DNA of 64,000 nt from Minisyncoccota bacterium (GTDB taxonomy: Bacteria > Patescibacteriota > Microgenomatia > UBA1400 > UBA12028), in contig JACRHV010000006.1 in assembly GCA_016211945.1 (NCBI GenBank), positions 146,093 to 210,092 on the forward strand, given 5' to 3'. The first letter of the stretch is position 1. Each line of letters opens with the position of its first letter. The position numbers and the translations under genes were made by a program. This document shows positions 19,831-51,869 of the stretch, one piece after another. The notes beneath the pieces were generated by a model. That model was not told where the DNA came from. It searched no databases and saw only the letters and a list, made by a program, of their open reading frames with translations.

Positions 19831-20327
19831 TTGATACAGAAAGATTATTTCTCTTTACCCATTCTTACTCAGGAAAAGTCATCGCAGAACACATCACGAA
19901 ACGGTGTAAGGATGACACAGCCCGATTCGAAAGAGAGGTCCATCTTTTAGCCAAAGTGTTACGCTTTCGACATGCTGACCTCAAAAAACTTATCATTTAT
20001 CCCATAACTCTTGATGTCTCTATAAAAATTATGAAGCCAGATCTTCTGGCGTTTCTTGAGGTGGAAAGAGAACTTGAATGTATCGCTTCAGAAAAATTGG
20101 ATGAGTATTCAACTGCCAAAGAAGACTACCAACGACAAATGCTCACACCAGCCATTGAACGAGTTGCTGGAAATGCACTTGCGGGAATTGACGATGATTC
20201 TGAGTTTCAGAATAAAATTCAAGAAAAAATACAGGAACATGGGCGAGTATATTATAAAGTGGCTCGAAAGTATCGACTTCCCACAATGCGGATTGTGCCT
20301 TTTCTCTTGAGGCTCATTGCTTGTTAA
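19821..20327 (+). CDS. Hypothetical protein (168 aa)
   Basis: Intact ORF divergent from tnpA and convergent with the helicase gene, with overlapping stops. No recognisable motif. Confidence 0.4.
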   Translation: MTKFDTERLFLFTHSYSGKVIAEHITKRCKDDTARFEREVHLLAKVLRFRHADLKKLIIYPITLDVSIKIMKPDLLAFLEVERELECIASEKLDEYSTAKEDYQRQMLTPAIERVAGNALAGIDDDSEFQNKIQEKIQEHGRVYYKVARKYRLPTMRIVPFLLRLIAC

Positions 20328-22612
20328 ATCGAAAACAGGCTTTGTTGGTTTTCATCAATCTGTTTTCTTTTTGTTACTGGGGTAGTTATTTTGGTGAGTC
20401 CTAATGTTCGATATGTTCGCAGTCTTTTAAAGTACATCAACTTGAGCATTGGCACCTGGTCATCAAAATAATCATGAACTACTGCTATTGTTTTTCCCTC
20501 AAATGGTCGCTGGACTCTGCCCACATATTGAATAAGCTTGCCCTTCCACGAAAAAGGGAATGCAAAAAAGACGTGGGAAACTGCTGGCCAGTCAAAGCCT
20601 TCACCAATTAGCTTGCCAGTTGCGATTAAAAGCTGGAAACGCTCTTGCATCATGCGTTTTGCAATGCGCTCACGATTCTTTTTGGTCATATTTCCGGTAG
20701 CAATAGCAGCATGAATATTTTTTATTTTTTCGCGAATCAAAGTCATGAGAGTTTCACAGTGTTCGATGCGCTCAGTCAGAACAATGCATTTTGCTCCTGT
20801 ATTCAAAACCTCCACAATGTCACTAGCAATTTGGTCATTACGTTTTGCATCAGCAATAAGAAACTTTCCTAACTCTTGAAATTCGTCTATTTTGTGAGCA
20901 ACTGTAAAAGCTGTTTTTCGTGTCATAAGTTGTGTCTCTACAGATGGTGACTCCACATTTTGCGGATTCTCTTTTGTCTGCTCAGCTACCGAAATAATAG
21001 TGTCACTTACGTAAAAGTGCATCAGTTTTTCCAGTTTATCTTTTCGATACGCTGTTGCGGTTAATCCCAATACATATTTGGCAGAAAATTGTTTAACCAC
21101 ATCGCTGAATGTGTTTGCTGGCACGTGATGGCACTCATCAATAATGACCAATCCAAATTGATTTTTGACGTCATCTAAATTCCTGCGCGTTAGTGTCATG
21201 TAGGAAGCAACGGTGACTTTTTTTCCGATTCGCCATTTATTGCCAATGGTACCTAAGTCTTCCTTGGTGAGTTTGAAATAGGTATTGAATCGTCTGATCC
21301 ATTGATCAAGCAATATCGTTGTGTGGACGACAATAAGTGTTTTTTGCTGAAGTTTCTTCATCAGAGCTAATGCCACCATCGTTTTACCAAAACCAGGATG
21401 AGCCTCCAGAATGCTGCGATTTTGTAGCAGGAGAGATTTGAGAATTTTTTGCTGATCCGCGTGCAATTTTAGCGTTGATGGAAATTGCATCTTTTTTGTG
21501 GTGATTCGTTCATCTTTTATTTCAACTGTTAGTTGTTCTTTTTTGATAAAGGCAAGAAGTTTATTTAAAAATCCAAGTGGCAAAGCAACATGATCAGGAA
21601 ATACTTCTAGAGTTTTGATGGACCGAGCGGTCTGCCATGTTGAGTACCCAAATCGTTCTTTGACATAAAATTCAGGATTGGGAAAATTCAGCTCTCTTTT
21701 CAGGAATCGATACAATTTATCTGGTAACCAAAGGCTTGGAATAACAATGTTGGACGAAAGCATGGCATGAACTTCCTGGCCTTGGGTTGTTGAAACTGTT
21801 GGTTCACTTTCTTCTTGAGTTACAATTTCTCTTTTTGTTTCGTCTTTGCTCTGTTCCATTTTATATTCAGCAGAGGTTTCTTTCACTAAATGAGCTGTAA
21901 TTGGGTTTGCCTGATACTGAATTTTTGTTTTCTCGTTCATGCAATGATCAATATCATTCAGGCTCACTCTTTTGATCGACTCAAGGAATTGCCATTGATC
22001 TAGACAAACTTCACCAACAGAATCAATAAACACTGTATTTCCTTCTATCACCGCTTTTCCCTGCAACGGCAAACAAATCAGATTCCCAAACCCTTTTCCG
22101 GTATGTTCATCCTGACTGGGAAACATGCGGTCAAACGTCTTACGAGTGGTTATTCCAGCTTGAAAGAGCAACAGTTTCCCTATTTGTCGTGCTTTGTATG
22201 CAACAATGCGCTGATCAAAAAAGATCCATACATGTCCGCCCTCACCCGAACGGGATCGTTCAATATATGCAGAGATGTTGAGTAGCTTTGCCTGCTCAAT
22301 GATTTTGCGAGCCAATATAAGCCAATCTTTCCCATCAAAATCAATGACGAGAAACGCTGCCGTATTATCAGGAAATAACGGATACACGCCAATCGTTTGA
22401 TTCCCAAGCAAGTGATCACGAATCACATCATCCGTTAATACGTGTGATTTTTGATTCAAGTTATACACTGGGGCGTAACCAGTCTTTTTGTTCATCATGT
22501 CCACCCAATAGTGTGCAAAGACATCGTCGCGAGTGGAAAAAAGCGAACGAAATAGATGTATTTGACTAGGCAAAAATGTGAGCATGTGAGCTCTATTATA
22601 TCTCGAGGTCAA
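20324..22612 (-). CDS. Fusion protein: N-terminal archaeo-eukaryotic-primase-type primase-polymerase (PrimPol) domain and C-terminal DExH SF2 helicase
   Basis: N-terminus: AEP motif I 'FLVIDFDGKD' (DxD) and motif II 'RSGEGGHVWIFF' (sGxGxH). C-terminus: helicase motif I 'HPGFGKTM', motif II 'VIIDECHH', motif III 'GLTATAYR', and motif VI 'QYVGRVQRP'. A single 762-aa ORF. Confidence 0.7.
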   Translation of the reverse strand: MTSRYNRAHMLTFLPSQIHLFRSLFSTRDDVFAHYWVDMMNKKTGYAPVYNLNQKSHVLTDDVIRDHLLGNQTIGVYPLFPDNTAAFLVIDFDGKDWLILARKIIEQAKLLNISAYIERSRSGEGGHVWIFFDQRIVAYKARQIGKLLLFQAGITTRKTFDRMFPSQDEHTGKGFGNLICLPLQGKAVIEGNTVFIDSVGEVCLDQWQFLESIKRVSLNDIDHCMNEKTKIQYQANPITAHLVKETSAEYKMEQSKDETKREIVTQEESEPTVSTTQGQEVHAMLSSNIVIPSLWLPDKLYRFLKRELNFPNPEFYVKERFGYSTWQTARSIKTLEVFPDHVALPLGFLNKLLAFIKKEQLTVEIKDERITTKKMQFPSTLKLHADQQKILKSLLLQNRSILEAHPGFGKTMVALALMKKLQQKTLIVVHTTILLDQWIRRFNTYFKLTKEDLGTIGNKWRIGKKVTVASYMTLTRRNLDDVKNQFGLVIIDECHHVPANTFSDVVKQFSAKYVLGLTATAYRKDKLEKLMHFYVSDTIISVAEQTKENPQNVESPSVETQLMTRKTAFTVAHKIDEFQELGKFLIADAKRNDQIASDIVEVLNTGAKCIVLTERIEHCETLMTLIREKIKNIHAAIATGNMTKKNRERIAKRMMQERFQLLIATGKLIGEGFDWPAVSHVFFAFPFSWKGKLIQYVGRVQRPFEGKTIAVVHDYFDDQVPMLKLMYFKRLRTYRTLGLTKITTPVTKRKQIDENQQSLFSI

Positions 22613-22691: not shown

Positions 22692-23897
22692 CTAAGCAAG
22701 CTTAATTTCATCTGGAATGAACGTGAGTTTAGTTTTAATGAAGTCCAACATCGTATTAAAAGTTCCTTCTTCCTGCGGAGAGATATTCAGACTGTAAAAG
22801 GTTGTTTTGCCTACTTCTCTTCTGTTAACAATTTTTTGGTCAGTCGCTTGCTGGAGGTAGGTGACGAATGTTTGGCGAGCCATTTTGCCGTTAACATTTT
22901 TGAAAAGATTTTTAAACTGGACTTCATGTTTTTTAATCAGGGGTTTGCAGATACGAGTGATCTGCTCATCGGTGTTCTGACTATCCAGAAATGCCTTTCG
23001 TTTTACTTCAAGGCTTGTTTTCACTACTGACAAGATGGATAAAGCAAAGGCTTCCTGAAAAAATCCCACAAAATGATTCAAGTTCTTTCGTTCCAAAGAA
23101 AACAATAAGTACTTATAGTACCGTGCTTTTTCTTTATGATAGTAATAGGAGGTACTGTACAGATTTTTTTTGTTCACTCCTAATGAACGAAGAAAAATGT
23201 GTTCGAGAATTCTTGATACTCGTTTATTGCCATTAGTGAAGGGATGGAGGGCATATAAAGCAGTATGAAAAATGCCAATACTAGTAATAGCTCTATTATT
23301 TTGAATCCAAATAACGAGCTCTTGTACACCAGTCTCGATTTCATGATAAGGTGCTGGTTTATACTCGCCCACACGAATATTGTCATTGTCTCGCCATTTT
23401 CCTGATTTATAGACATCGAAATGTGGTAAGTGCGTTTGAAACACATCCAAACCTTGGGTTAATTTTTGATGAAGCTGCAAAATAAAGTCTGGAGTAACTT
23501 CATCAATCTGAATCTCTTGATATTCTCGAAAGGTTTTGGCAATGTTAAAGAATTCCAGTTTTTCATAATCCTTCTGCAATAGCTTCTTTCCCTTTTTCAA
23601 CTTACCACTGATAAACGAATAGTCTTCATTTTTGAGTAAAAAGTCATATACATCCTGGGCTTCTTGAAGCGTTAATGTCGAGTTTTCGGCTTTTGAGATC
23701 GCAAACGAAGCCAACAGTTCATTTTTGCTCAGTAGATTCTTTTCAATATCTGGATCTAAAAAGAGCTGTTCATATTGGTTTAAATCCCTGTCTAAATCAA
23801 GCAATTCCTCATTGGAGAATGGTAAAAGACTTGGGGTTAGGATCAATTGATTCAGAAAAGGGCTGGTGAAGGGGTTATTGGTAGTAATTGTGGTCAT
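22692..23897 (-). CDS. Fic/Doc family protein (Doc-like 'NGNKR' variant of the Fic motif)
   Basis: Core motif 'HPFTNGNKRVSR', with HxFx(D/N)GN(G/K)R and a Lys at the second Gly position as in Doc. It has extended N- and C-terminal regions and sits on the same strand 80 nt upstream of the PrimPol-helicase gene. Confidence 0.8.
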   Translation of the reverse strand: MTTITTNNPFTSPFLNQLILTPSLLPFSNEELLDLDRDLNQYEQLFLDPDIEKNLLSKNELLASFAISKAENSTLTLQEAQDVYDFLLKNEDYSFISGKLKKGKKLLQKDYEKLEFFNIAKTFREYQEIQIDEVTPDFILQLHQKLTQGLDVFQTHLPHFDVYKSGKWRDNDNIRVGEYKPAPYHEIETGVQELVIWIQNNRAITSIGIFHTALYALHPFTNGNKRVSRILEHIFLRSLGVNKKNLYSTSYYYHKEKARYYKYLLFSLERKNLNHFVGFFQEAFALSILSVVKTSLEVKRKAFLDSQNTDEQITRICKPLIKKHEVQFKNLFKNVNGKMARQTFVTYLQQATDQKIVNRREVGKTTFYSLNISPQEEGTFNTMLDFIKTKLTFIPDEIKLA

Positions 23898-27433: not shown

Positions 27434-28864
27434 ATGAGTGTGCAGGCAAGACCACCAGTTGTTACCATTATGGGTCATGTTGACCATGGCAAGACTTCGC
27501 TTTTAGATGCAATTCGACATACCACCGTTGCGGCCAAAGAGGCCGGTGGTATTACGCAGCACATTGGTGCCTACCAGGTTGAACACGCCAAAAAAACTAT
27601 TACTTTTATCGATACTCCAGGCCACGCGGCGTTTACCAAGATGCGCTCCCGTGGGGCGCAGGCTACCGATATTGTTGTTCTCGTTGTTTCGGCTTCAGAG
27701 GGGGTAAAACCGCAGACTGTGGAGTCGATTCAGCACATCAAAAAAGCAGGCGTCCAATATCTTGTTGCGCTGACAAAAACAGATTTGCCAGACTCAGACA
27801 TTGAGCGTGTGAAGGCGCAGCTGACGGAATATGAGGTGTTTGTTGAGGGGTATGGCGGTGACATCGTGTGTGTTCCTGTTTCCGCAAAGACCGGAGATGG
27901 ATTGGATAAATTACTTGAAATGATCTCTCTTATTGCCGAGATGATGGATCTCAAGGCCGATGCTTCTGCCTCGATTGAAGGGGTGATTATTGAATCGAAG
28001 ATGGAGGCGCGTCGCGGTGCTGTGGCGACGGTACTCGTAAAAAACGGCACACTTCACCTTGGCGATACCATCTATGTTGATCAGGTAAGCGCAAAGGTAA
28101 AGGCAATGACCGACGCACTTGCAAAACCAGTGAAAGAGGCAGGTCCATCAACGCCAGTTGAAGTGTTGGGATGGAACACAGCTCCGTTGATCGGCGGACT
28201 TGTGATGGCGACAGCCTCGCAACCAATAGAGAACCAGAGTGGAGAAAAAAGCGTATCGAGCGAGCATGATGACGAGAGTCCAACGAAGCTGAAACTTATT
28301 ATTAAGTCCGATACTGCTGGGACATTAGAGGCAATTGAAAACAGTATTGTAACGGACGAGATTGTGGTGATTAGTAAAGGCATTGGAGATGTTGGTGAGG
28401 CAGATGTTCTTATGGCCGAGTCAACTGGCGCGCGTATCATCGGGTTCCATGTGAAGGTGCCGTCTGCGGTGTTAGCGATGGCGGAGAACATGAAGGTAAA
28501 GATTAAGACATACACCATTATCTTTGACATGATCGAAGATATTCAGAAACAAGTTTTGTTGCTGATTGAGCCTTCCATGAACGAGGAAGAGTTGGGAACC
28601 GCAGAGATTGTGATGATTTTTGACATGAAAGGTGAACGCGTTGCGGGATGCAAGATTAAAACCGGAGAAATTGGTCGAGGACAACTCTACCACATTAAAC
28701 GTGGTGATGTGGTTATTGCCGATCCAAAAATGAAATCGATGAAGACTGGAAAGCAAGATATTGAGTCGATGAAGGCCGGCGGCGAGTGCGGTATTGTGTT
28801 CCGCAACTATACTGATCTCCAAAAAGGGGATGTGATTCTCGCGTATAAAATAAAAGAGATATGA
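27434..28864 (+). CDS. infB: Translation initiation factor IF-2 (short form beginning at the G domain)
   Basis: G1 'GHVDHGKTS', G3 'DTPGH', G4 'TKTD', followed by beta-barrel and C2 domains. No N-terminal extension. Confidence 0.93.
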
Positions 28865-39430: not shown

Positions 39431-39497
39431 TTTTTCATTGAATCATTCAGCATTTTTTCTTCTTGCTGATATGTTCTTTATATGGCACAATACAGAA

Positions 39498-39824
39498 ATG
39501 AGGAAATATGTTGTGTTTGAGAAACACGCACAAAAAGAAATACGCACTTTTCCTCAAACTGTTCAAATAAAATTCAAAGCAATACTAAAAATTTTAGAGG
39601 AGAAAGGAGAACTGCATTATCCGGATGCGAAAAAAATAGAACATAAAAATAATCTTTTTGAAATAAGAATAAAACATAGGGGGGAATGGAGGGCAATATA
39701 CACATATTCAACGCGGAATTATATTATTATCCTTTCCGCTTTTTATAAAAAAACACAAAAAACTCCAAAAGAAGAACTCGAGAAAGCAATAAGAAGATTG
39801 AACTTTCTTAAAGGAAAAATATGA
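39498..39824 (+). CDS. Type II toxin, RelE/ParE superfamily (HigB / Gp49-like)
   Basis: 'LFEIRIKHRGEWRAIYTY' and 'FYKKTQKTPKEELEKA', with a 4-nt overlap to a downstream HTH gene. The start was set at 'MRKYVVF'. Confidence 0.65.
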   Translation: MRKYVVFEKHAQKEIRTFPQTVQIKFKAILKILEEKGELHYPDAKKIEHKNNLFEIRIKHRGEWRAIYTYSTRNYIIILSAFYKKTQKTPKEELEKAIRRLNFLKGKI

Positions 39825-42357: not shown

Positions 42358-42990
42358 ATGAAAACGGTTGGTGAACTGCTCCATGATGGTCGTGTTTCTC
42401 TAAAAAAAGACGTCCATGAGATTGCTCGGACAACACACATCCGTGAAGAATATTTGGAAGCGATGGAACAAAACGCGTTCGAGAAGCTCCCTGAAGGTCC
42501 TTTTGTAAAAGGATTTCTCCGTACCTATGCGCTCGAACTCAATATGGAGCCAGACCACGTCCTCGCAGTGTATCGGCGTGATTTTGGAGATAAAAAAATA
42601 CCACAGCTTTTTCCAAAAGGATTGGTTTATCCGATTCGCCGCCTATCCTATCTCACGATTCACCCGTTCGTTTTTGGTATAGGAGTGGTATGTTGCGTTG
42701 TTGGATTCTTTTTGGCATACCAATGGTATGTATTCACACAGCCGCCGGAAGTTATTGTGTATGAACCAACCGAAAAGCAGGAAACACACTCTCCACTGCA
42801 AGTTCGCGGAAAGACCTCAACAGATGCTGTAGTCTATGTGAATGCCAATCCCGTTGCACTAGATCAAGATGGAAAATTTACAACAAATATTGAGTTGCAG
42901 GTTGGCGAGCAAACGGTGCGTGTTGAAGTACAAAGCCGACAGGGGAAAAGGAGAGTGATTCAGCGAGTTGTACGTGTCCTCGAAAAATGA
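42358..42990 (+). CDS. RodZ-like protein (HTH + TM + C-terminal domain)
   Basis: N-terminal 'LKKDVHEIARTTHIREEYLEAMEQ' HTH_25-type, then a single TM, then a beta-rich C-terminus. Confidence 0.6.
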   Translation: MKTVGELLHDGRVSLKKDVHEIARTTHIREEYLEAMEQNAFEKLPEGPFVKGFLRTYALELNMEPDHVLAVYRRDFGDKKIPQLFPKGLVYPIRRLSYLTIHPFVFGIGVVCCVVGFFLAYQWYVFTQPPEVIVYEPTEKQETHSPLQVRGKTSTDAVVYVNANPVALDQDGKFTTNIELQVGEQTVRVEVQSRQGKRRVIQRVVRVLEK

Positions 42991-43664: not shown

Positions 43665-45269
43665 ATGAACGAAGCAAATCAGCCAGATCCTTTAGCAATG
43701 CTTGATAGACAGATTGGTGTCGTAAAAGGTTATGCAGATCGTTTGGACACTGCTAAAACGGTGGTTGATGAACAAAAGACAGCAGCGGACAGGGATGTTA
43801 ACAATCTGGTACAAAAGGCAGAAATATTTACTGGTACAGATGCGAATCTCGCACAAGTTCAAGACAATTTAAAAGCTGTTCAACAAAGAAATGATCCTCA
43901 AGAAAACGGTCTTTTTAATCTGGGTAAATATTTCAACAGAGCTGCTAAAGAAGAAGAAAGAAAACTTCAAGGTGTTGTTAATAATCTACAGGAGCAAAAA
44001 CAGACAACACAACACGAATATGAGGAAGCAGTGAAAGTTGCTGCAGAATCATCTTTACCGCTACAACGTACAGAAGAAGACTTGAAAAGAATGCCTGAAT
44101 TGTTGGGTGCAAATAGCAGAGGCGGTGGGTATGAAACTTCAGAAAAAATGACGTCTGCTCTTGAAAAACAAGACAAACTTGCATCCTCTTTGAAGTGGTA
44201 TGAGGGTTTACATTATGATGTAAACCCAGAATGTGCATTCTCGGTGGACGCAATTGGGGCAATGAAAGATAAATTCATTGCAGTATATTGGCAAAAAAAA
44301 TTTGATGAGAATGCAAAAACAGTAGCTGAAGAAAAACAGTATATTGAAGAGTTAAAACAAAAGAAGGGATACGAACAATATTCTATAGACCAAGCTATTG
44401 GTAATGCACAAAAAACAATAGATCGCATTGTAGCAAGTGATGAGTATGAAAGAAAGAAAGCGGATCGAGAAGCAAATGAAGCTGTTGTAACGATGACAGG
44501 ATTTTTTGAGAAAGCTGTGGAGTATGCAGATGAACATGGAATCGAGGTAAGTAGAAATGTATTGGAACAAGCGTTGTCACGTGGTTTTCTTGAGGGAAGT
44601 ACTCGAAGAAGAATTGGTCAGTATAATAATGAAGATGGTAAATTTGAGGCGGGTTACAAAGCATATTTGGCCGAATTGCTTAAAACAAAGCCAGAGGAAA
44701 TTCATCCAGATCTTTTTTTTACAGATACGTATTCTTTAGCAGCGTTTTCACTTGATGGTTTGGTAAAAAAACACGGCCTTAAGCAAGATGCCTCGCTTAT
44801 TCCAGAGATTATCGCATATATCGGTGGAGTTGCTGCACAGCAAGAATATAGTGGAAGAAGAAAATTAGAAATATTATTAAGAGATCTTCTTGTTGATGTA
44901 CTGGAAGTTGATAAAGATGCTTTTGTCCGAGAAGGTAGAGCTTGGGTAAAGGGACATGTAAAAGAAGGCACCTATCCTTTGGGTGGACAAACTCGGTGGG
45001 GTGGATATGGTTCTGGGGTTGGTGAGGATCATCGATTTTCAACAACAGTAAGTATATCAGCAACAAATTTTGGGACGAGTGATGATGGATTGCGAGAAAA
45101 AATTCGTGAAGCTAATGTTATGGCGAAAAAAATCATTCAGGGAATTTATGACAAAGATTGTCTTCGAAGCATACCTAATGTTGATGAAAATTTTGGTCTT
45201 CCTGATGGTGGACGTGCGATGGATGTGTTAGATATCCATAACCTATCTGAAGCAAGAACTCATTTTTAA
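43665..45269 (+). CDS. Hypothetical coiled-coil protein (534 aa), with no TM or signal peptide
   Basis: Long intact ORF. The N-terminal third is heptad-like. Confidence 0.5.
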   Translation: MNEANQPDPLAMLDRQIGVVKGYADRLDTAKTVVDEQKTAADRDVNNLVQKAEIFTGTDANLAQVQDNLKAVQQRNDPQENGLFNLGKYFNRAAKEEERKLQGVVNNLQEQKQTTQHEYEEAVKVAAESSLPLQRTEEDLKRMPELLGANSRGGGYETSEKMTSALEKQDKLASSLKWYEGLHYDVNPECAFSVDAIGAMKDKFIAVYWQKKFDENAKTVAEEKQYIEELKQKKGYEQYSIDQAIGNAQKTIDRIVASDEYERKKADREANEAVVTMTGFFEKAVEYADEHGIEVSRNVLEQALSRGFLEGSTRRRIGQYNNEDGKFEAGYKAYLAELLKTKPEEIHPDLFFTDTYSLAAFSLDGLVKKHGLKQDASLIPEIIAYIGGVAAQQEYSGRRKLEILLRDLLVDVLEVDKDAFVREGRAWVKGHVKEGTYPLGGQTRWGGYGSGVGEDHRFSTTVSISATNFGTSDDGLREKIREANVMAKKIIQGIYDKDCLRSIPNVDENFGLPDGGRAMDVLDIHNLSEARTHF

Positions 45270-45306: not shown

Positions 45307-47160
45307 ATGACTCCAAATCAGTTGCGCGCAACCTACATCAAGTTTTTTGTTGATCGTGGACATGTTGAAATCCCCTCCGCCTCCTTGGTTCCGGAAAATG
45401 ATCCCACGACCCTATTCACCAGTTCTGGGATGCAACCACTTGTTCCCTACCTCCTCGGGCAGTCCCACCCCTCGGGGAAAAAATTAGTTGACTCACAAAA
45501 GAGCTTTCGGTCACAGGATATTGAGGAAGTGGGCGACAATAGACACACCACATTTTTTGAGATGCTTGGGAACTGGTCGCTCGGTGAATACTTCAAAAAA
45601 GAACAACTTGCATGGTTTTTCGAGTTCCTCACAAAAGAAATCAGACTTGATCCCAACCGCCTCTTTGTGACGGTCTTCGCGGGAAACCCCGCAGTTCCCC
45701 GTGACATAGACTCGGTAGGAATCTGGAAATCACTTTTTTCGTCCGCCAACATACAAGCAAAAGACGTTGAGGATGCCGAGAATAAGGGTATGCAGGGTGG
45801 CCGTATCTTTTACTACGGTGAAAAGAAAAATTGGTGGTCGCGATCTGGCGTTCCGTCGGCGATGCCTGCGGGTGAACCGGGTGGACCAGACAGTGAAATA
45901 TTTTACGATTTTGGTGCGGAACTTCAACTCCACGAAACCTCGCAGTTCGCACATCAAGACTGTCACGTGAACTGCGACTGCGGCCGGTTCATGGAGATTG
46001 GAAACAGTGTATTCATGCAATATCAAAAACAGGCGGATGGATCGTTCAAAGAACTACCACAGAAGAATGTGGATTTTGGCGGTGGATTCGAACGCATTCT
46101 CGCAGCGATGGATAACACACTTGATGTATTCACCACCGATCTTTTTCGTCCAATTCTTACCACAATAGAAGAAATTTCGCACATATCGTATGATGGCAAA
46201 CACAAGCGCAACTTCCGTATTATTGCCGACCATGTTCGTGCCTCGGTCATGTTAGCGGCTGATGGTGTTGTGCCATCGAACAAAGAACAAGGCTACGTAT
46301 TGCGCCGGCTAATTCGCAGAGCAGTTCGGTTTGGCAAGCTACTCGGCATTCAAATCCCATTCATATTAGAAGTTGCGCAGTCGGTGATTGATCAATACAA
46401 GGAAATATACTCGGACGTTGGAGAAAATTCCGCTGCAATTCTCAGCACGCTCCAAGAAGAAGAACAAAAATTTGGCAAAACGATCACCAAAGGACTCAAA
46501 GAAATTGAAAAAGTTCCAACACTCAATGGTGAGATCGCGTTTACGCTCTATGAGACCTATGGTTTTCCATTCGAGTTAACCGAGGAAATTGCCCGAGAGC
46601 GCGGGCAACAGGTGGAGTATGGAACATTCCGCAAAGCATTTGAAAAACACCAAGAGCTTTCTCGTACCACGTCCAAAGGAATGTTTAAGGGTGGGCTTGC
46701 GGATCATTCTGAAATAGTGACAAAATATCACACCGCAACACACCTTCTTCATGCCGCACTCCGTGAGGTATTAGGAAAACATGTTACACAGCAAGGCTCA
46801 AATCTCACGGCAGAACGGTTGCGGTTTGATTTTTCGCACCCCCAACCATTAACAGAAGATCAAAAGAAAAAAGTTGAGTCGATCATCAATGAAAAAATTG
46901 CAGATGCTCTTCCGGTCACACCACAGTTCATGAAAAAAGACGAGGCATTGGCACAGGGAGCACTCGCATTTTTCCAAGAAAAATATGGAGACACCGTTTC
47001 TGTGTATACCATTGGACATGATCCGGAAAAAGATTGGTATTCAAAGGAGTTGTGTGGTGGGCCGCATGTTAAAAATACACAAGACATTGGAAAAATGAAG
47101 ATTACAAAAGAAGAGTCTATTGGATCTGGGAAGAGACGTATTTATCTCCAACTGGCTTAA
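45307..47160 (+). CDS. alaS: Alanine--tRNA ligase (catalytic + tRNA-binding + editing domains; no C-Ala domain)
   Basis: Class II core 'FTSSGMQP', 'FEMLGNWSLGEYFK', the editing-domain zinc motif 'HTATHLLH', and 'CGGPH'. The ORF ends directly after the editing domain. Confidence 0.93.
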   Translation: MTPNQLRATYIKFFVDRGHVEIPSASLVPENDPTTLFTSSGMQPLVPYLLGQSHPSGKKLVDSQKSFRSQDIEEVGDNRHTTFFEMLGNWSLGEYFKKEQLAWFFEFLTKEIRLDPNRLFVTVFAGNPAVPRDIDSVGIWKSLFSSANIQAKDVEDAENKGMQGGRIFYYGEKKNWWSRSGVPSAMPAGEPGGPDSEIFYDFGAELQLHETSQFAHQDCHVNCDCGRFMEIGNSVFMQYQKQADGSFKELPQKNVDFGGGFERILAAMDNTLDVFTTDLFRPILTTIEEISHISYDGKHKRNFRIIADHVRASVMLAADGVVPSNKEQGYVLRRLIRRAVRFGKLLGIQIPFILEVAQSVIDQYKEIYSDVGENSAAILSTLQEEEQKFGKTITKGLKEIEKVPTLNGEIAFTLYETYGFPFELTEEIARERGQQVEYGTFRKAFEKHQELSRTTSKGMFKGGLADHSEIVTKYHTATHLLHAALREVLGKHVTQQGSNLTAERLRFDFSHPQPLTEDQKKKVESIINEKIADALPVTPQFMKKDEALAQGALAFFQEKYGDTVSVYTIGHDPEKDWYSKELCGGPHVKNTQDIGKMKITKEESIGSGKRRIYLQLA

Positions 47161-47390
47161 TTGCGAGCACGTTGTTCTACAACACTAAGTCGTGTTTCAT
47201 GATTTTCAACAACGTCTTGTAACTCGCTGACGTGGTGAACAGTAACAATGTGGTCTTCTTGAAGTGGATGAAGTTCTGCGAGAATTTCATCTTTAAACTT
47301 TGCCATATCACTTAAGAGCGACTGTCGCACTTCTGCGAATTTTTCATCAAATATATCCTTTATAATCTGTACATCACGTTTTGTGAGCAT
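47157..47390 (-). CDS. Hypothetical small protein (77 aa)
   Basis: Intact ORF convergent with alaS. No motif. Confidence 0.3.
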   Translation of the reverse strand: MLTKRDVQIIKDIFDEKFAEVRQSLLSDMAKFKDEILAELHPLQEDHIVTVHHVSELQDVVENHETRLSVVEQRARN

Positions 47391-47565: not shown

Positions 47566-49788
47566 ATGGCCCTGCCAAACGTTTTTGGTACAAAAAAATC
47601 GTCTGATCTCAAGCGTATGCTCGCGCTTGATATCGGATATGAAGTTGTGACTGCAGCGGTGTGGGAACTTCAGGATGGTCACGCAAAAGTCATCAAAACG
47701 AGCAGTCCCATAGAGTGGCACGAGGAGCGTGTTGAGGAGCTTACCGAAGCATCTGATGTTGCGTTTGAGGAACTCGGCAAGGAGTCGGTGGAGATTGACG
47801 AGGTACTACTTGGGTTACAGGAGGAGTGGGTCGAGGGAGCGCACATCAAAGAAGACCGTAAAAAATATTTACGTGGACTTAAAGATCAACTCGCGCTCAA
47901 ACCCATAGGATTTGTGGTGACGCATGAAGCACTTTCTACCTATCTCCAGGAACTAGAGGGTGGTCCGGTCAATGCACTGCTTGTTGAGTACACCACCGCA
48001 GTTATCGCGGTGTGTATAGTTCGGGCAAAAACGAAAACACCGGTTGTTGTGGTTGGTAGGAGTGGTGAGAGTATCGCAGATCTCTCCGAGGCGCTGACGA
48101 GGATAAAAGAAAATCAATATCCCGCGCGTATTATTGTCTATAGTGCGCGAATGAAACAGGAGGAGTTGGATAAAGAGAAACAAACTCTTCTTGCGCATGA
48201 TTGGCAGAAAGTCTTTCCATTTCAACACATACCAAAAGTTGAGACATTGCCCCATAACGTTGTGATCTCTGCTGTGTGTTTGGCGGGCGGAGGAGGAACA
48301 TCACAGATGGCAGAAGCGACACAAGGAGAGACACAACCACTTTTCGTGGATCAAGAAGTACATCAAAATGTGCAAGATGTATCAACTGATTTTGGATTCC
48401 AAGAGGTACAGATGGACAATCTAAAATCAGAGCAGATCGGAATGCAAACAGAGACAGAGCAAGAAGAGATGAACAGAGATGAGGAAGAGTCTGTCGTGTC
48501 TCCTTCAAGAAAACAATTTTCATTTTCGCCCATGCCGTTTTTTCATGCACTCAAAACTCCAGTACAAAAAATGTGGAACAGTCTCTCCGCCGGACAAACA
48601 TTAAGTGCGAAGTTTCATTCGGATGTGCGTGGGACAAAAACATTGCGCATTTTGAGTGTTTGTGTTGTTGTCGCACTTCTTGGCGGAACGGTGTTTGGGT
48701 GGTGGTATCTTTCCACAACAATGACAGCACAGGTCATCCTTTCACTCAAAACACAGCCATTTGCACAGGACGTGGAGATCACGCTCGATTCATCATTGAA
48801 GCAGAGTGATCCGGAAGGCGGAATATTGAAGGTAGATCGGGTGGAAAAAGAGGTAGAGGGCGAAAGAGAAACAAATACAACAGGAATAAAGATTGTTGGC
48901 GATCGGGCAAAAGGCAAAGTGACGCTGTTCAACGCGACAAGTGGAGAAAAAACATTTCCAGCGGGGACGATACTCCAAGGTCCAAATAATCTAAAGTTCA
49001 CATTAGATGAAAAGGTTGTTGTTGCGAGCAGCGGTGGCTCGGCACAGAGTCTTCAACCTGGAACAGCATCCGCAAACGCAACTGCCTCAAACATTGGGAC
49101 AGAGTCAAATGTTTCGGAGAAAACCGAGTTTCTCATTGCGAATTTTGATAAGAAATCGTATGTTGCAGTGAGTGATGGGGCGTTTACTGGCGGCTCAAGC
49201 CGTGAAATTCAAGCTGTTGCAAAAGAAGATCAAGCAAAACTTGAACAACTTCTGATGAAAGATTTGCAAAAGCGGGCTATTGATGCACTCCAGCAAGAAC
49301 AGAAAGACGGGACAAAGATTATTCCTATTGGTGATGTCGCGGTAAAAACAAAAATCTTTGATGCTAAGGTTGGCGAGGAAGCGAAACTTGTCAATCTCAA
49401 GTTGACGGTGACCGCGCATGCGTTGCGGTATACCACGGCAGACCTCCTTCCAGTCGCACAGTATATGTTGCGGTCGTCACTCCCCTCAACAATGGTACTC
49501 AGAGAAGAAAAAACACAGATTGATCCACAAGAAATTCAAGATACAACAGAAACAAGTGTGAAGCTAAAGGCTACGCTGTCATCTGAGGGAATTCCGACCG
49601 TTGATCGATCAGCAATTGTTCAATCTATCCAAGGAAAAACAACAGCACAGGCAACCTCGATCTTGAAAGAACGGTCAGAAATCGGAGAATCTGTAATTCG
49701 TATAACTCCTTCTTTTGCGGGTCTCCTTTTTGGATCACTTCCAGAATCAGCAGCAAATATTCAAATACAGACAAAGGTGGGGTTATGA
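47566..49788 (+). CDS. Large protein with an N-terminal actin-like ATPase (FtsA/PilM-like) domain, an acidic linker, one TM, and a ~380-aa extracytoplasmic region
   Basis: N-terminus 'LALDIGYEVVTAAVWELQDG' (ASKHA phosphate-1 type), then low-complexity, then TM 'ILSVCVVVALLGGTVFGWWYL', then a Ser/Thr-rich beta-like region. The stop overlaps the sortase start. Confidence 0.6.
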   Translation: MALPNVFGTKKSSDLKRMLALDIGYEVVTAAVWELQDGHAKVIKTSSPIEWHEERVEELTEASDVAFEELGKESVEIDEVLLGLQEEWVEGAHIKEDRKKYLRGLKDQLALKPIGFVVTHEALSTYLQELEGGPVNALLVEYTTAVIAVCIVRAKTKTPVVVVGRSGESIADLSEALTRIKENQYPARIIVYSARMKQEELDKEKQTLLAHDWQKVFPFQHIPKVETLPHNVVISAVCLAGGGGTSQMAEATQGETQPLFVDQEVHQNVQDVSTDFGFQEVQMDNLKSEQIGMQTETEQEEMNRDEEESVVSPSRKQFSFSPMPFFHALKTPVQKMWNSLSAGQTLSAKFHSDVRGTKTLRILSVCVVVALLGGTVFGWWYLSTTMTAQVILSLKTQPFAQDVEITLDSSLKQSDPEGGILKVDRVEKEVEGERETNTTGIKIVGDRAKGKVTLFNATSGEKTFPAGTILQGPNNLKFTLDEKVVVASSGGSAQSLQPGTASANATASNIGTESNVSEKTEFLIANFDKKSYVAVSDGAFTGGSSREIQAVAKEDQAKLEQLLMKDLQKRAIDALQQEQKDGTKIIPIGDVAVKTKIFDAKVGEEAKLVNLKLTVTAHALRYTTADLLPVAQYMLRSSLPSTMVLREEKTQIDPQEIQDTTETSVKLKATLSSEGIPTVDRSAIVQSIQGKTTAQATSILKERSEIGESVIRITPSFAGLLFGSLPESAANIQIQTKVGL

Positions 49789-50600
49789 GTGTGGTTTACA
49801 CAAAAGCGAAACCGGCGTATGTACCGCCACATCAAACCCGGGTGCAAAAAACACACATCCACCGGTTTGTGAATATACTCCCCGCAGTCCTCGTGACATT
49901 CGGTAGTGTACTCATTGCAAACGTGCTATGGCCTATTCTTTCTTTTCAGATCTTTACCTCACCGCTTCTCCAGACACCCACTTTTGTTGCTCCTGTTGCG
50001 GAAGAGCAGATGGTGCAGTACCAGCCTGCAGTGTTGCCGGTGAAAGCGGCAGAGGAGACACAAAATCTTCCAACTCCCACACCGACGATCTTGGATGGCG
50101 AACTGGATTACACGAACCTCGCGCTTTGGTTTCCGTCACAGCATTTGCAGGATTTTAAAGAGCAGGAAGCAAAAAGTTACTCTCTCACTATCCCTGAACT
50201 TGATATAGAAAATGCGGTAGTAAAAATCGGTGGTTTGAATCTTGATAAAAACCTCATCCAATACCCTGGAACGGCAAATCCCGGTGAACTCGGTTCGCCT
50301 ATTATTTTTGGCCATTCAGTTTCACCGCTGTTTTATAATCCATCAATAAACAATTCAAAACGTTACACATCAATCTTTACGAAAATTATGACCTTGAAAA
50401 AAGATGATAAAATCATCGTCAATTACGATGGTATTACCTATACCTATCGTGTAACAAATAAAATCGAGGTAAAGCCGGACGATACCTATATCCTTGAACA
50501 ACGGTATGACGTGCGGGAACTCAAACTCGTGACATGCACACCGCCGGGAACCTATCTGCGTCGGGGTATTGTATTTGCACAGCTGGAAGATTTTGAATGA
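49785..50600 (+). CDS. Sortase family transpeptidase
   Basis: N-terminal TM anchor, 'IIFGHS' (catalytic His), 'LKLVTCTPPG' (TLxTC active-site Cys), and a downstream Arg. Confidence 0.75.
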   Translation: MSVVYTKAKPAYVPPHQTRVQKTHIHRFVNILPAVLVTFGSVLIANVLWPILSFQIFTSPLLQTPTFVAPVAEEQMVQYQPAVLPVKAAEETQNLPTPTPTILDGELDYTNLALWFPSQHLQDFKEQEAKSYSLTIPELDIENAVVKIGGLNLDKNLIQYPGTANPGELGSPIIFGHSVSPLFYNPSINNSKRYTSIFTKIMTLKKDDKIIVNYDGITYTYRVTNKIEVKPDDTYILEQRYDVRELKLVTCTPPGTYLRRGIVFAQLEDFE

Positions 50601-50989
50601 AATATCTTGCAATTGACTATGGAACAAAACGGGTTGGTGTTGCGGTAAGCCGCGCTTGGCTGGCGGAACCGTTGGCGGTTTTTCCTCGTGACAGAGCGAT
50701 TGAAAAAATTACGTCTTACATTCATGAAGAACGCCCTCATGCTGTATTAATTGGTATTGCAGATGGCCCAATAGCAGAGGAGGCACGTCTTTTTGCACAG
50801 GAACTCCAGAAAAAAATCGGTGATATAAAAATTATTGAAGCTGATGAAACATTGAGTAGTGTTGAGACGCATACGAAGTTAGCAACAAGCGGAATGTCTC
50901 GCTCAAAAAGACAAGGGGACATAGATCATTATGCCGCCGCCGCTTTTCTTCAAGATTACCTTGATATGCATAAGGAAGATGGTGAATAA
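50597..50989 (+). CDS. ruvX: Holliday-junction resolvase-like YqgF/RuvX
   Basis: 'YLAIDYGTKRVGVAVS' and an RNase H-like fold. Confidence 0.85.
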   Translation: MKYLAIDYGTKRVGVAVSRAWLAEPLAVFPRDRAIEKITSYIHEERPHAVLIGIADGPIAEEARLFAQELQKKIGDIKIIEADETLSSVETHTKLATSGMSRSKRQGDIDHYAAAAFLQDYLDMHKEDGE

Positions 50990-51869
50990 GACGCGCGCAA
51001 TGGTCATGCTCATGATAAGTGCGTTATGCTACGCGCTGTTGAATGTCGTCGCAAGACTTCTCAACCTAGGTTTTGAGCCGATGACACAAACATATCTTCG
51101 CATTTTTCTTGGCGCGGTTGTTGTAGGCATGATTTTTTCAAGAAAAATTCGGTGGAGCAGACTCTCTCATATTCCAAAGCAAGATTGGATATACCTCACT
51201 ATTATTGGTGTCTTGGGATATGGACTCATGGTGTACTTTATCTCAATGGGTGCGATTCGAGCGAAATTGCTGAATGTTGCGGTTGTCTATGCAACGATTA
51301 CGATGTTCACATATCTTTACTCGCTCATCTTTTTTAGAAAGAAGTTCCGATGGTCAATCATGATCATATTATTCATCTCATTGTTCGGCGTTGCGGTGCT
51401 TGCGAGTAAATCATATATACCGCAACTTGACCATTTTGGGATAGGAGAACTTTTTGTTCTCATTTCTGCCGCAATGGGAGCTTGGTATGCGGTTGCAAGA
51501 AAAAAACTTTCCACATATCTGAACAATGCAGAGATCTCGTTTATTGTCATGAGTATTGCCAGTATTGCTACTTTTCTTCTTGCTCTGATTTCAGGTGAAT
51601 CATTTTCGTTTTCATCGTTTTCTATCCCAGGAGTGTTTATAGGGCTGTTACTAGGAGCAACGCTCAACATCATATCTACCTATGCGGAAAACTATGCATT
51701 CCAACATATTGATGCGGTTGTGGGGAATCAAATGCTCTTGTCAGAGAATATTTTTGCATTGGTATTAGGATTGACGTTATATAAAGAAGTTGTGACTCCG
51801 CCGGAATTGGTGGGAGCAGTGATTATTGTCGGATCGGTATATGTGATGAATAGGATGGAAAAGGGGTAA
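50979..51869 (+). CDS. EamA/DMT family transporter
   Basis: Ten predicted TM helices in two EamA repeats. Confidence 0.75.
   Translation: MVNKTRAMVMLMISALCYALLNVVARLLNLGFEPMTQTYLRIFLGAVVVGMIFSRKIRWSRLSHIPKQDWIYLTIIGVLGYGLMVYFISMGAIRAKLLNVAVVYATITMFTYLYSLIFFRKKFRWSIMIILFISLFGVAVLASKSYIPQLDHFGIGELFVLISAAMGAWYAVARKKLSTYLNNAEISFIVMSIASIATFLLALISGESFSFSSFSIPGVFIGLLLGATLNIISTYAENYAFQHIDAVVGNQMLLSENIFALVLGLTLYKEVVTPPELVGAVIIVGSVYVMNRMEKG

What the first reader, a model, noticed from the sequence alone, without database searches (positions are those of the whole stretch)
47566..50600. FtsA/PilM-like actin-fold domain fused to a TM and a large extracytoplasmic region, translationally coupled to a sortase
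The 740-aa protein begins with an ASKHA/actin-like N-terminal domain (LALDIGYEVVTAAVWELQDG...), continues through an acidic low-complexity linker, crosses the membrane once, and ends in a ~380-aa Ser/Thr-rich extracytoplasmic region. Its stop codon overlaps the start of a sortase gene, and ruvX follows. Cytoplasmic actin-like ATPases coupled through one TM to an external domain resemble PilM-PilN(-PilO) or FtsA-FtsQ fusions. Such an arrangement could link a cytoplasmic filament to cell-surface assembly and fits the unusual division and pilus machinery of reduced epibiotic bacteria. The external region has no LPxTG, so it is probably not itself the sortase substrate.
Basis: partly seen in the sequence, partly recalled or inferred. 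Interest (0 to 1): 0.5.

Follow-up and report, generated by a model that had tools for sequence, protein, structure and literature searches.

The report
FtsA-like domain fused to baseplate-J ectodomain
This gene from an ultra-small (CPR/Patescibacteria) bacterium encodes a membrane-spanning protein that joins a stripped-down, FtsA-like actin-fold domain inside the cell to a phage-baseplate-like module outside it; it belongs to a large, uncharacterised family whose two-gene version was scored fitness-critical in a transposon screen of a cultivated relative.

Summary

The ectodomain is not PilN/PilO/FtsQ-like. It is a Baseplate-J/gp47-type wedge module by sequence and by fold. The N-domain lacks two large segments (inferred 1C and 2B) and all nucleotide-binding motifs, so it is probably a non-catalytic docking domain.

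The ORF is a genuine evolutionary fusion. In other CPR lineages the same alaS-...-ruvX-mltG slot holds two adjacent genes: an FtsA paralogue, and a TM/J-like protein homologous to the ectodomain over its full length. In Southlakia epibionticum the syntenic pair coexists with canonical FtsA-FtsZ and PilM, and Tn-seq calls it essential (J-like gene) and growth-defective (FtsA-like gene). Sortase linkage is specific to the fused form (26/28 loci against 0/23).

The family is large (about 1,600 clusters at 50% identity) and I found no description of it. Its function is inferred: an envelope-spanning scaffold.

The parts
47566..49788 (+). Whole gene: 740-aa bitopic membrane protein (FtsA-like domain, linker, TM, Baseplate-J-like ectodomain)
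   Evidence: ORF. 100% identical to NCBI HZA34_03655 of Ca. Pacebacteria. Full-length architecture conserved in 38 aligned homologues and in all 150 listed hits of an exhaustive profile search, some of them shorter probable fragments.
47566..47613 (+). N-terminal peptide, aa 1-16, with conserved M-x-L-P start; disordered in the model
   Evidence: pLDDT <50 for residues 1-12. M1/L3/P4 conserved in the alignment.
47614..48312 (+). Minimal ASKHA/actin-fold domain, aa 17-249 (1A+2A core; 1C and 2B inferred absent; nucleotide motifs degenerate)
48313..48639 (+). Cytoplasmic linker, aa 250-358; acidic and variable, then basic just before the TM
   Evidence: Net charge -11 over aa 251-330. Highly gapped and variable columns in A1.
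48385..48408 (+). Conserved linear motif [ED][DE][LF]GFx[DE][IV] (TDFGFQEV, aa 274-281) inside the linker
   Evidence: G277 in 158/169 and F278 in 164/169 full-length members. Function unknown.
48640..48708 (+). Single transmembrane helix, aa 359-381 (LRILSVCVVVALLGGTVFGWWYL)
   Evidence: Kyte-Doolittle 19-residue windows >2.0 only here outside the folded domain. Basic residues on the N-terminal side.
48712..49785 (+). Extracytoplasmic Baseplate-J/gp47-like module, aa 383-740 (beta-barrel region followed by alpha/beta domains)
48898..49206 (+). Segment with direct sequence similarity to phage baseplate wedge proteins (aa 445-547; contains the invariant AxGKVTxxN, IGxxxN and GGxS motifs)
   Evidence: phrog_6 'baseplate wedge subunit' E 5.8e-6 for this protein, 12/21 members. 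PF04865 Baseplate_J in 28/38 members. Profile hit to 8v3w_E TRI-2 at E 0.0055. Motifs invariant in fused and split forms.
49785..50600 (+). Membrane-anchored sortase (271 aa); its start overlaps the stop of the 740-aa gene by 4 nt
   Evidence: PF04203 E 1.5e-21. No NCBIfam sortase class reaches its cutoff. LVTC motif. ATGA overlap. Directly downstream in 25/27 fused loci and 0/23 split loci.
50597..50989 (+). ruvX (YqgF), overlapping the sortase stop; conserved downstream neighbour of the module
   Evidence: PF03652 E 1e-26 and TIGR00250. Synteny.
45307..47160 (+). alaS (short, 617 aa); conserved upstream neighbour of the module
   Evidence: PF01411 E 1.3e-123. Synteny.

Best explanation
The gene encodes an envelope-spanning scaffold specific to CPR/Patescibacteria. 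It arose by fusion of a conserved two-gene module.

Shown:
- The cytoplasmic part is a trimmed paralogue of FtsA with an ASKHA fold. Two large segments of the split partners are absent (inferred 1C/SHS2 and 2B), and the nucleotide motifs are degenerate.
- The extracytoplasmic part is homologous to Baseplate-J/gp47 wedge proteins of contractile tails.
- In other CPR classes the two halves are adjacent, sometimes overlapping, genes in the same alaS-...-ruvX-mltG slot.
- The module is housekeeping-linked and is never accompanied by other tail genes.
- In the fused lineage a membrane sortase is almost always encoded immediately downstream, often with overlapping stop and start codons.

Inferred:
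- The N-domain no longer binds ATP or forms FtsA-type filaments. It acts as a docking or oligomerisation module.
- The J-like ectodomain, like its phage relatives, is a protein-protein assembly platform on the outer face of the membrane.
- In the fused lineage this platform positions or partners the co-translated sortase, so that surface-protein or cell-wall anchoring is coupled to a cytoplasmic cue.
- The covalent fusion replaced a non-covalent interface between the FtsA paralogue's 1C region and the cytoplasmic head of the J-like protein. This would explain why both are missing in the fused form.

For: Trimmed and degenerate: 169-member conservation shows no DxG[ST], no glycine-rich phosphate-2 loop and no GG adenosine motif. 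hhalign to the split partners (98.1%, E 6.8e-14) places insertions of about 65 and 45 aa only in the partners, which retain DIxGxxTDVA.

The split partners are FtsA-family: PF14450 up to 60.8 bits, above its cutoff. TIGR01174 scores up to 114.8 bits, below the equivalog cutoff of 175.85, with PilM much weaker.

Fusion of adjacent genes. The fused ectodomain matches the split proteins at 100% probability, E 2.2e-59, over 355 columns.

Synteny alaS-X-sortase-ruvX-mltG holds in homologues of 27-30% identity. A sortase lies downstream in 25/27 fused loci plus the window, and in 0/23 split loci.

Family size: 1,598 clusters at 50% identity.

Biological importance: in S. epibionticum, SEML1_0655 (J-like) is class II essential and SEML1_0656 (FtsA-like) shows a growth defect. 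Both are Patescibacteria-enriched core families. Canonical FtsA-FtsZ and PilM exist elsewhere in that genome (PMC10633639 Tables S1/S2).

Meheust et al. report the sortase family as near-ubiquitous in Microgenomates (PMC6744442).
Against: No direct functional data exist for any member. The Tn-seq depletion of SEML1_0655 could be partly polar on the essential ruvX just downstream.

Orthology of the Southlakia genes to this family rests on identical synteny, size and annotation. I could not retrieve their sequences.

No sortase substrate is encoded nearby, so the sortase link is purely genomic. Two fused loci lack the sortase (L019, L021).

Global TM-scores to J proteins are low (about 0.22), so only the barrel region (about 130-140 residues) is firmly superposable.

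Loss of ATP binding is inferred from motifs, not measured. The identification of the two missing segments as 1C and 2B is inferred from their positions. Oligomerisation of either domain was not modelled.
Confidence: 0.5

Rival explanations
1. Divisome or cell-wall factor. The protein is a membrane-anchored FtsA variant, analogous to FtsA-FtsN/FtsQ or MreB-RodZ, that links the cytoplasmic division or elongation machinery to peptidoglycan remodelling outside. The sortase anchors proteins at the septum.
For: FtsA is the best structural neighbour and the best curated-family hit of the split partners. The locus lies among ftsK, a RodZ-like HTH_25 gene, ruvX and (in other genomes) mltG. One paralogue sits directly upstream of ftsW/rodA (L040).
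Against: No POTRA/FtsQ-like or SPOR-like fold is present in the ectodomain. The fused domain lacks the segments inferred to be 1C and 2B; by established FtsA biology these carry the FtsN and FtsZ binding sites. A canonical ftsA-ftsZ pair exists separately in S. epibionticum. The alaS-ruvX-mltG neighbourhood is a general bacterial housekeeping cluster and need not imply shared function.
Confidence: 0.25
2. Pilus or secretion platform. The protein is a PilM-PilN(-PilO)/GspL-like inner-membrane assembly platform for a pilus (sortase-dependent or type IV).
Confidence: 0.15
3. Remnant or component of a prophage, tailocin or contractile injection system baseplate.
For: There is sequence and fold similarity to Baseplate_J/gp47/gp6 wedge proteins. 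NCBI names a family member 'baseplate J/gp47 family protein'.
Against: No other tail, sheath, tube or wedge gene is present in the window or in 50 related loci. Synteny with alaS, ruvX, mltG and rpoB is conserved across CPR classes. The protein is anchored by an N-terminal TM and fused to an actin-fold domain. About 1,600 clusters share the same architecture, which indicates vertical inheritance.
Confidence: 0.03
4. Assembly or frameshift artefact that joins two separate genes.
For: In other CPR lineages the two halves are indeed separate adjacent genes.
Against: The fused ORF recurs in 27 independent genome assemblies and in the listed hits of the exhaustive profile search, with a conserved linker motif and TM. 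The fused N-domain differs systematically from the split gene: it lacks the two inserted segments and the nucleotide motifs.
Confidence: 0.01

Closest known systems
SEML1_0656 / SEML1_0655 pair of Southlakia epibionticum ML1 (Saccharibacteria); annotated 'PilM' and 'baseplate J/gp47 family protein'; listed but not discussed in Wang et al., Cell 2023 (PMC10633639)
   Same: Same genomic slot (alaS - pair - ruvX - mltG). An FtsA-domain protein sits next to a TM protein with a J-like ectodomain (ECOD: beta-barrel, G3P-like, gp6 C-terminal domain III). Both belong to Patescibacteria-enriched core families. Uncultured Saccharibacteria loci with this arrangement are homologous to the window protein over the full ectodomain (hhalign 100%) and over the ASKHA core (98.1%).
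   Different: Two genes instead of one. The FtsA-like protein is full-size (427 aa, with SHS2/1C), and its relatives keep the phosphate-2 motif. The J-like protein carries its own cytoplasmic SpoIIAA-like head. No sortase is adjacent.
FtsA (bacterial actin of the divisome; e.g. S. aureus 3wqt, T. maritima 1e4f)
   Different: Only 13% identity. The segments inferred to be the 1C (SHS2) and 2B subdomains are absent. Nucleotide motifs are degenerate. The tether is a transmembrane helix plus a large ectodomain, not a C-terminal amphipathic helix. It is not next to ftsZ. The split partners score below the equivalog cutoff, and the fused protein does not hit the FtsA models at all.
PilM-PilN (type IV pilus alignment complex) and GspL (type II secretion)
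   Different: The external domain is Baseplate-J-like, not the ferredoxin-like PilN/PilO/GspL/GspM fold. The gene is not in a pilus or secretion locus. There is no Pfam PilM_2 or GspL hit for the fused protein.
Baseplate J / gp47 / gp6 / TRI-2 / Afp11 / Pvc11 wedge proteins of contractile tails, tailocins and eCIS
   Different: It is a cellular, chromosomally conserved housekeeping-context gene, anchored in the membrane by an N-terminal TM. It has no partner wedge (gp7/I/TRI-1), hub, sheath or tube genes. Global superposition is poor (TM about 0.22).
GlxA beta-barrel domain (Streptomyces lividans, 4unm)
   Different: The similarity is confined to one barrel of about 130-140 residues. GlxA is a copper oxidase with no related context, so this is taken as a fold-level resemblance.

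Membership tests
ASKHA / actin-fold superfamily | Two RNase-H-like beta-beta-beta-alpha-beta-alpha-beta-alpha subdomains (1A, 2A) | tested here: met
ASKHA / actin-fold superfamily | Conserved nucleotide-binding motifs (phosphate-1 DxG[ST], phosphate-2 DxGGG[T], adenosine GG) | tested here: not met
   In 169 full-length members, position 22 is E79/V28/D19/Q16 and G24 occurs in 38/169. There is no glycine-rich phosphate-2 loop and no GG after the 2A beta4 strand.
FtsA | Match to curated FtsA models (PF14450, TIGR01174) above cutoff | tested here: not met
   The fused protein has no Pfam or NCBIfam FtsA hit. The split partners pass PF14450 (up to 60.8 bits, cutoff 31.8) but not TIGR01174 (114.8 or less, cutoff 175.85).
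FtsA | 1C (SHS2) subdomain inserted in 1A, and 2B subdomain | tested here: not met
   The domain has 250 aa against 370-420 for FtsA. hhalign shows insertions of about 65 and 45 aa present only in the split FtsA-like partners. Their identification as 1C and 2B is inferred from position.
FtsA | C-terminal amphipathic membrane-targeting helix; gene adjacent to ftsZ | tested here: not met
   An acidic linker, a TM helix and an ectodomain follow instead. No ftsZ lies among the window ORFs scanned. In S. epibionticum, ftsA-ftsZ is a separate locus.
PilM (type IV pilus) | Match to PF11104 / TIGR01175; location in a pil locus next to pilN/pilO | tested here: not met
   The fused protein has no hit. 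The split partners score 26.5-39.3 bits on PF11104, but TIGR01175 scores 47.6 or less against a cutoff of 133. No pil genes occur in the 27 fused loci.
PilM (type IV pilus) | Binds the conserved N-terminal peptide of PilN in the 1A/1C groove | not testable with these tools
   No multimer modelling was available. The inferred 1C subdomain is absent.
PilN / PilO / GspL-periplasmic / FtsQ-POTRA | Ferredoxin-like (alpha-beta-beta)x2 or POTRA fold in the extracytoplasmic domain | tested here: not met
Baseplate_J (PF04865) / gp47 / gp6 wedge proteins | Sequence match to family profiles | tested here: inconclusive
   The window protein itself has no PF04865 hit at E<=1. However, it hits phrog_6 'baseplate wedge subunit' at E 5.8e-6. 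28/38 relatives hit PF04865, best E 2.3e-6. The family profile hits TRI-2 8v3w_E at E 0.0055.
Baseplate_J (PF04865) / gp47 / gp6 wedge proteins | Characteristic fold and domain order | tested here: met
Baseplate_J (PF04865) / gp47 / gp6 wedge proteins | Encoded with other baseplate, tail or sheath genes and assembled into a contractile-tail baseplate | tested here: not met
   Neighbours are alaS, sortase, ruvX, mltG, rpoB, ftsK, dnaE and thrS. No tail genes occur in the window or in 50 loci.
Sortase (neighbouring gene) | Sortase domain with catalytic His / Cys (TLxTC-like) / Arg; N-terminal membrane anchor | tested here: met
   PF04203 covers 1-124 of 125 positions, E 1.5e-21. The sequence shows IIFGHS, LVTC and RRG motifs and a hydrophobic N-terminal segment.
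Sortase (neighbouring gene) | Assignment to a defined class (A-F) by curated model | tested here: not met
   Best scores are 39.3 (class C), 36.8 (D) and 34.6 (E) bits, against cutoffs of 160-165.
Sortase substrate (the 740-aa protein itself) | C-terminal LPXTG-like motif, then a hydrophobic segment, then a basic tail | tested here: not met
   No such signal is present. The invariant C-terminal 'LP' (P726) is equally conserved in sortase-less split lineages (20/21).

The most novel reading that the evidence does not exclude
CPR/Patescibacteria possess a previously undescribed, vertically inherited, fitness-critical envelope machine. It is built from a third FtsA/PilM paralogue and a domesticated contractile-tail wedge (Baseplate-J) protein. 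The J-like ectodomains would oligomerise into a baseplate-like platform on the cell surface, controlled from the cytoplasm by the actin-fold partner. In Microgenomates the system has been welded into one polypeptide and has recruited a dedicated sortase, which would make it a new kind of surface-assembly or host-contact apparatus.
Probability: 0.2. Interest if true: 0.85.

Novelty: new variant of a known kind. Interest (0 to 1): 0.6.

Why it matters
CPR/Patescibacteria are a large fraction of bacterial diversity, and their cell-envelope and host-contact biology is mostly unknown.

This family is large (about 1,600 clusters at 50% identity). It sits in a conserved housekeeping locus and is flagged as CPR-enriched. 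Its split form was scored essential or growth-defective in the only genome-wide genetic screen of a CPR bacterium that I found. I found no description of it in the literature, and databases label it only 'hypothetical' or 'baseplate J/gp47 family'.

Three points give a concrete, testable handle on a conserved dark-matter module. The two halves are a functionally linked pair, as the gene fusion shows. The inner half is a third FtsA paralogue, distinct from the canonical FtsA and PilM. The outer half is a domesticated phage-wedge fold.

The work also adds an unusual case of a cellular, membrane-anchored Baseplate-J protein, and a lineage-specific partnership with a sortase.

Tried and rejected
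- Direct Pfam and NCBIfam scans of the 740-aa protein gave only noise (Dynamin_N, ABC_tran, LivG).
- phmmer and profile searches against PDB sequences gave nothing for the N-domain except gp41 coiled-coil hits, which I judge spurious.
A closer 8-sequence alignment worked.
- A search for LPXTG-type substrates in the window and in 50 loci found only spurious or unrelated candidates, such as an FtsW C-terminus.
- I considered that the invariant C-terminal LP (P726) might be a sortase signal. I rejected this because it is equally conserved in lineages without a sortase.
- I considered that the linker GF motif might be a remnant of an FtsA membrane-targeting helix or of the split protein's N-terminal domain. 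No counterpart was found.
- I tried to confirm the SpoIIAA-like assignment of the split proteins' cytoplasmic head by sequence. The only relevant hit was non-significant (E 0.56 to RsfB).
- I tried to retrieve the Southlakia/TM7x orthologues by profile search. They were not returned.
- Literature searches for this family returned nothing specific. The 2026 Pam-pilus preprint is unrelated.
- The promoter/terminator scan was at chance level for promoters and uninformative.
Full report

Yes. The window contains a 740-codon ORF at 47566..49788 on the + strand. It is followed by a 271-codon ORF at 49785..50600 and a 130-codon ORF at 50597..50989. The first stop and the second start share the tetranucleotide ATGA.

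The second ORF is a sortase: PF04203 at E 1.5e-21 covers the whole model, and the sequence has an LVTC cysteine motif. No curated sortase class model reaches its cutoff. The third ORF is RuvX/YqgF. A short alaS lies upstream.

The 740-aa protein is identical to a hypothetical protein of a Candidatus Pacebacteria MAG, so the source is a CPR/Patescibacteria genome.

The protein has a single strongly hydrophobic segment outside its folded domains, at about aa 359-381. Basic residues on its N-terminal side imply N-in/C-out. The segment at aa 251-330 has net charge -11. The C-terminal 358 aa have 19% Ser+Thr. Neither this protein nor any other window ORF carries an LPXTG-type sorting signal.

**2. 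The N-terminal domain**

Sequence methods see nothing in this domain. An AlphaFold2 model built on 22 homologues is confident (pLDDT 89.4, pTM 0.85). It shows two consecutive beta-beta-beta-alpha-beta-alpha-beta-alpha units.

The domain has only about 235 residues. In 169 full-length family members the phosphate-1, phosphate-2 and adenosine positions are not conserved: position 22 is E, V, D or Q, and there is no glycine-rich loop. A different set of residues is nearly invariant (W33, D64, W88, G115, R165-S166, D172, P186, W213, F219-x-H221-x-P223). I infer a nucleotide-independent scaffold domain, not an ATPase.

**3. The extracytoplasmic region**

This region is a well-folded multidomain module (pLDDT 92.1), not a low-complexity Ser/Thr region. 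Five independent lines tie it to Baseplate-J/gp47/gp6 wedge proteins of contractile tails:

- PF04865 is hit by 28 of 38 family members.
- The family profile hits diffocin TRI-2 (8v3w_E), with the alignment ending at the GG[ST] motif.
- The window protein itself hits PHROG 6, 'baseplate wedge subunit', at E 5.8e-6.
- Foldseek aligns 340-380 columns, essentially both full lengths, with 346-386-aa J-type proteins at probability 1.00. TM-scores are low (about 0.22), which I attribute to differing inter-domain angles.

No PilN, PilO, GspL/M or FtsQ/POTRA structure appears in either hit list.

**4. The family and its context**

An exhaustive profile search with the N-domain finds 1,598 clusters at 50% identity (1,071 at E<=1e-30). 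In all 150 listed hits the domain sits at residues 1 to about 250. Most of these proteins are 680-830 aa; about 20 are shorter and probably fragments.

Homologues of only 27-30% identity keep the gene order RNase J - ftsK - HTH_25 (RodZ-like) - alaS - X - sortase - ruvX - small ORF - mltG - rpoB.

A scan of one genome per species returned 47 loci. I analysed these together with the earlier loci, using HMMs of the two halves and of the neighbours.

- 27 independent loci carry the fused protein. 25 of them have a sortase immediately downstream. The gap is usually 45 nt or less and is often a 4-nt overlap.
- 23 loci carry only the TM plus J-like half as its own gene. These come from genomes labelled Saccharibacteria, WWE3, Yonathbacteria, Taylorbacteria, Gracilibacteria and Altimarinota. 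None has an adjacent sortase. Many still lie between alaS and ruvX.

**5. A gene fusion**

In most split loci the ORF directly upstream of the J-like gene has 346-441 aa, and it sometimes overlaps that gene. Five of ten such ORFs tested pass the Pfam FtsA model (PF14450, up to 60.8 bits), and four of those also reach the PilM_2 cutoff. Against NCBI's curated models their best hit is always TIGR01174 ftsA (up to 114.8 bits), which is below the equivalog cutoff of 175.85. PilM scores are far weaker. These proteins retain a canonical phosphate-2 motif, DIxGxxTDVA.

Profile-profile comparison links the fused N-domain to these proteins at 98.1% probability (E 6.8e-14, 231 columns). The only large gaps are two insertions in the split proteins. 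From their positions I infer that these are the FtsA 1C/SHS2 and 2B subdomains.

The fused ectodomain aligns with the split J-like proteins over 355 of 359 columns (100% probability, E 2.2e-59). The AxGKVTxxN, IGxxxN and GG motifs and the C-terminal proline are invariant in both forms.

The window gene is therefore a true evolutionary fusion, a 'Rosetta stone', of an FtsA paralogue with its membrane partner. It is not an assembly artefact. The fusion implies that the two halves work together.

Many split J-like proteins carry their own cytoplasmic head of about 75-100 aa, which the fused form lacks. Wang et al. assign this head as SpoIIAA-like. I could not confirm that by sequence. Some Parcubacteria-type proteins have only a short basic N-terminal peptide instead. 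I infer that the head, or the peptide, is the docking site for the FtsA paralogue, and that covalent fusion made both it and the 1C region dispensable.

**6. Experimental context from the literature**

Tables S1 and S2 of Wang et al. (Cell 2023, PMC10633639) list, for Southlakia epibionticum ML1:

- SEML1_0657: alaS.
- SEML1_0656: annotated 'PilM'; K03590; PF14450; top structural neighbours are SHS2-domain proteins.
- SEML1_0655: annotated 'baseplate J/gp47 family protein'. Its ECOD domains are SpoIIAA-like, a beta-barrel, G3P pilus-binding-like and gp6 C-terminal domain III.
- SEML1_0654: RuvX.
- SEML1_0653: MltG.

Both 0655 and 0656 are flagged as core, Patescibacteria-enriched families.

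The Tn-seq calls are NE/ES/ES for 0655, which makes it class II essential; its normalized reads fall 373, 34, 24. The calls are NE/NE/GD for 0656, with reads 2427, 660, 221.

The same genome has a canonical ftsA-ftsZ pair (SEML1_0174/0175) and a T4P pilM next to a PilN-like gene (SEML1_0104/0105). The alaS-linked gene is thus a third paralogue.

The paper's main text does not mention FtsA, PilM or baseplate, so the pair is not discussed there.

Two caveats apply. I could not obtain the Southlakia sequences, so orthology is inferred from identical synteny, size and annotation, and from the homology of uncultured Saccharibacteria loci. Insertions in 0655 may also be polar on the essential ruvX.

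**7. How it most likely works**

Shown: a bitopic protein with a degenerate FtsA-type domain inside and a J-type wedge module outside; derivation by fusion of a conserved pair; a housekeeping genomic context with no other tail genes; and tight, lineage-specific operonic coupling to a membrane sortase.

Inferred:
- The N-domain is a docking or oligomerisation module. It also carries two conserved short peptides that may bind partners: M-x-L-P at the N-terminus, and [ED][DE][LF]GFx[DE][IV] in the linker.
- The ectodomain, like phage wedges, is a protein-assembly platform.
- In the fused lineage the platform partners the co-translated sortase, so that surface-protein or wall anchoring is coupled to a cytoplasmic signal.

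Whether the cue is division or wall growth, or pilus or adhesin assembly, is open. In favour of division or wall growth are FtsA being the nearest relative, the neighbours ftsK, a RodZ-like gene and mltG, and one paralogue next to ftsW. In favour of pilus or adhesin assembly are the PilM resemblance and one paralogue next to a PilB-type ATPase. I rank the generic scaffold reading first (0.5), the divisome or wall reading second (0.25) and the pilus platform third (0.15). A prophage or CIS remnant and an artefact are effectively excluded.

**8. Novelty and score**

The principle is known: an actin-fold protein coupled through a single-pass membrane protein to an external domain. Examples are PilM-PilN, GspL, FtsA-FtsN and MreB-RodZ. 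What is new is the combination. A third FtsA paralogue is paired with, and here fused to, a cellular membrane-anchored Baseplate-J module, with a dedicated sortase in one lineage.

The family is large, CPR-enriched and apparently fitness-critical, and I found no description of it beyond automatic labels. I classify it as a new variant of a known kind and score its interest at 0.6.

The most novel reading not excluded is a baseplate-like surface platform controlled by an actin-fold partner. I give that about 0.2 probability.

Noticed in passing
window 48385-48408 (aa 274-281 of the 740-aa protein): A short motif, [ED][DE][LF]GFx[DE][IV], is almost invariant (G 158/169, F 164/169) inside an otherwise variable acidic linker. 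The N-terminal M-x-L-P peptide is also conserved but disordered. Both may be partner-binding peptides. No counterpart was found in the split proteins.
   Followed up: partly
L029-L035, L040, L041, L045, L046, L049 (N-termini of the split J-like proteins); L038, L042-L044, L047: Split J-like proteins carry different cytoplasmic heads. One is a conserved domain of about 75-100 aa (…VELxIPxGSxL…NLKxL…GKxVxFVTxD…), called SpoIIAA-like by Wang et al. but not confirmable by sequence. The other, in Parcubacteria-type loci, is only a short basic peptide (MPRRVQDIVP… / …KDVIVP…) that loosely recalls the PilM-binding N-terminus of PilN.
   Followed up: partly
L036, L037, L051 (between dnaE and thrS); L048 (next to a PilB-type T2SSE ATPase); L040 (upstream of ftsW/rodA): There is a third architecture: TM plus J-like ectodomain only (381-390 aa), or with other heads. 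These paralogues sit in different housekeeping neighbourhoods, so some CPR genomes have more than one membrane-anchored J-like protein (L039 has two).
   Followed up: partly
L019 and L021: Two fused-type loci lack the sortase: ruvX follows the fused gene directly. In both, alaS is on the opposite strand, which suggests local rearrangement.
   Followed up: no
window 20324-22612 (-) and 22692-23897 (-): A 762-aa protein carries a TOTE-conflict-system archaeo-eukaryotic primase domain (PF22548, E 7e-66) plus a superfamily-2 helicase. It lies next to a Fic/DOC-family protein. This is a likely defence or conflict island in a reduced genome.
   Followed up: no
window 39438-39824 (+): A Gp49-like (PF05973, HigB-type toxin) gene is inserted between RNase J and ftsK. 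It interrupts a gene order that is contiguous in related genomes.
   Followed up: no
window 43665-45269 (+): A 534-aa protein with no family hit lies between the RodZ-like HTH_25 gene and alaS. Related genomes have only small ORFs there (one is YtxH-like).
   Followed up: no
window 42358-42990 (+): A 210-aa protein has an N-terminal HTH_25 (RodZ-type) domain and a C-terminal Glucodextran_B-like domain. It is conserved immediately downstream of ftsK across distant CPR loci.
   Followed up: partly
window 47157-47390 (-): A 77-aa ORF lies on the opposite strand between alaS and the 740-aa gene and overlaps the alaS stop. It has no significant family hit, and it is unclear whether it is a real gene.
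   Followed up: no
window 50931-51869 (+): In this genome ruvX is followed by an EamA transporter whose longest ORF overlaps ruvX by 59 nt, and then by a 2-hydroxyacid dehydrogenase. In most relatives ruvX is followed by the small ORF, mltG and rpoB.
   Followed up: no
window 45307-47160 (+) and 27434-28864 (+): Housekeeping proteins are shortened. AlaRS has only 617 aa and ends at the tRNA_SAD domain; 588-648-aa versions recur in related loci. IF-2 has only 476 aa.
   Followed up: no
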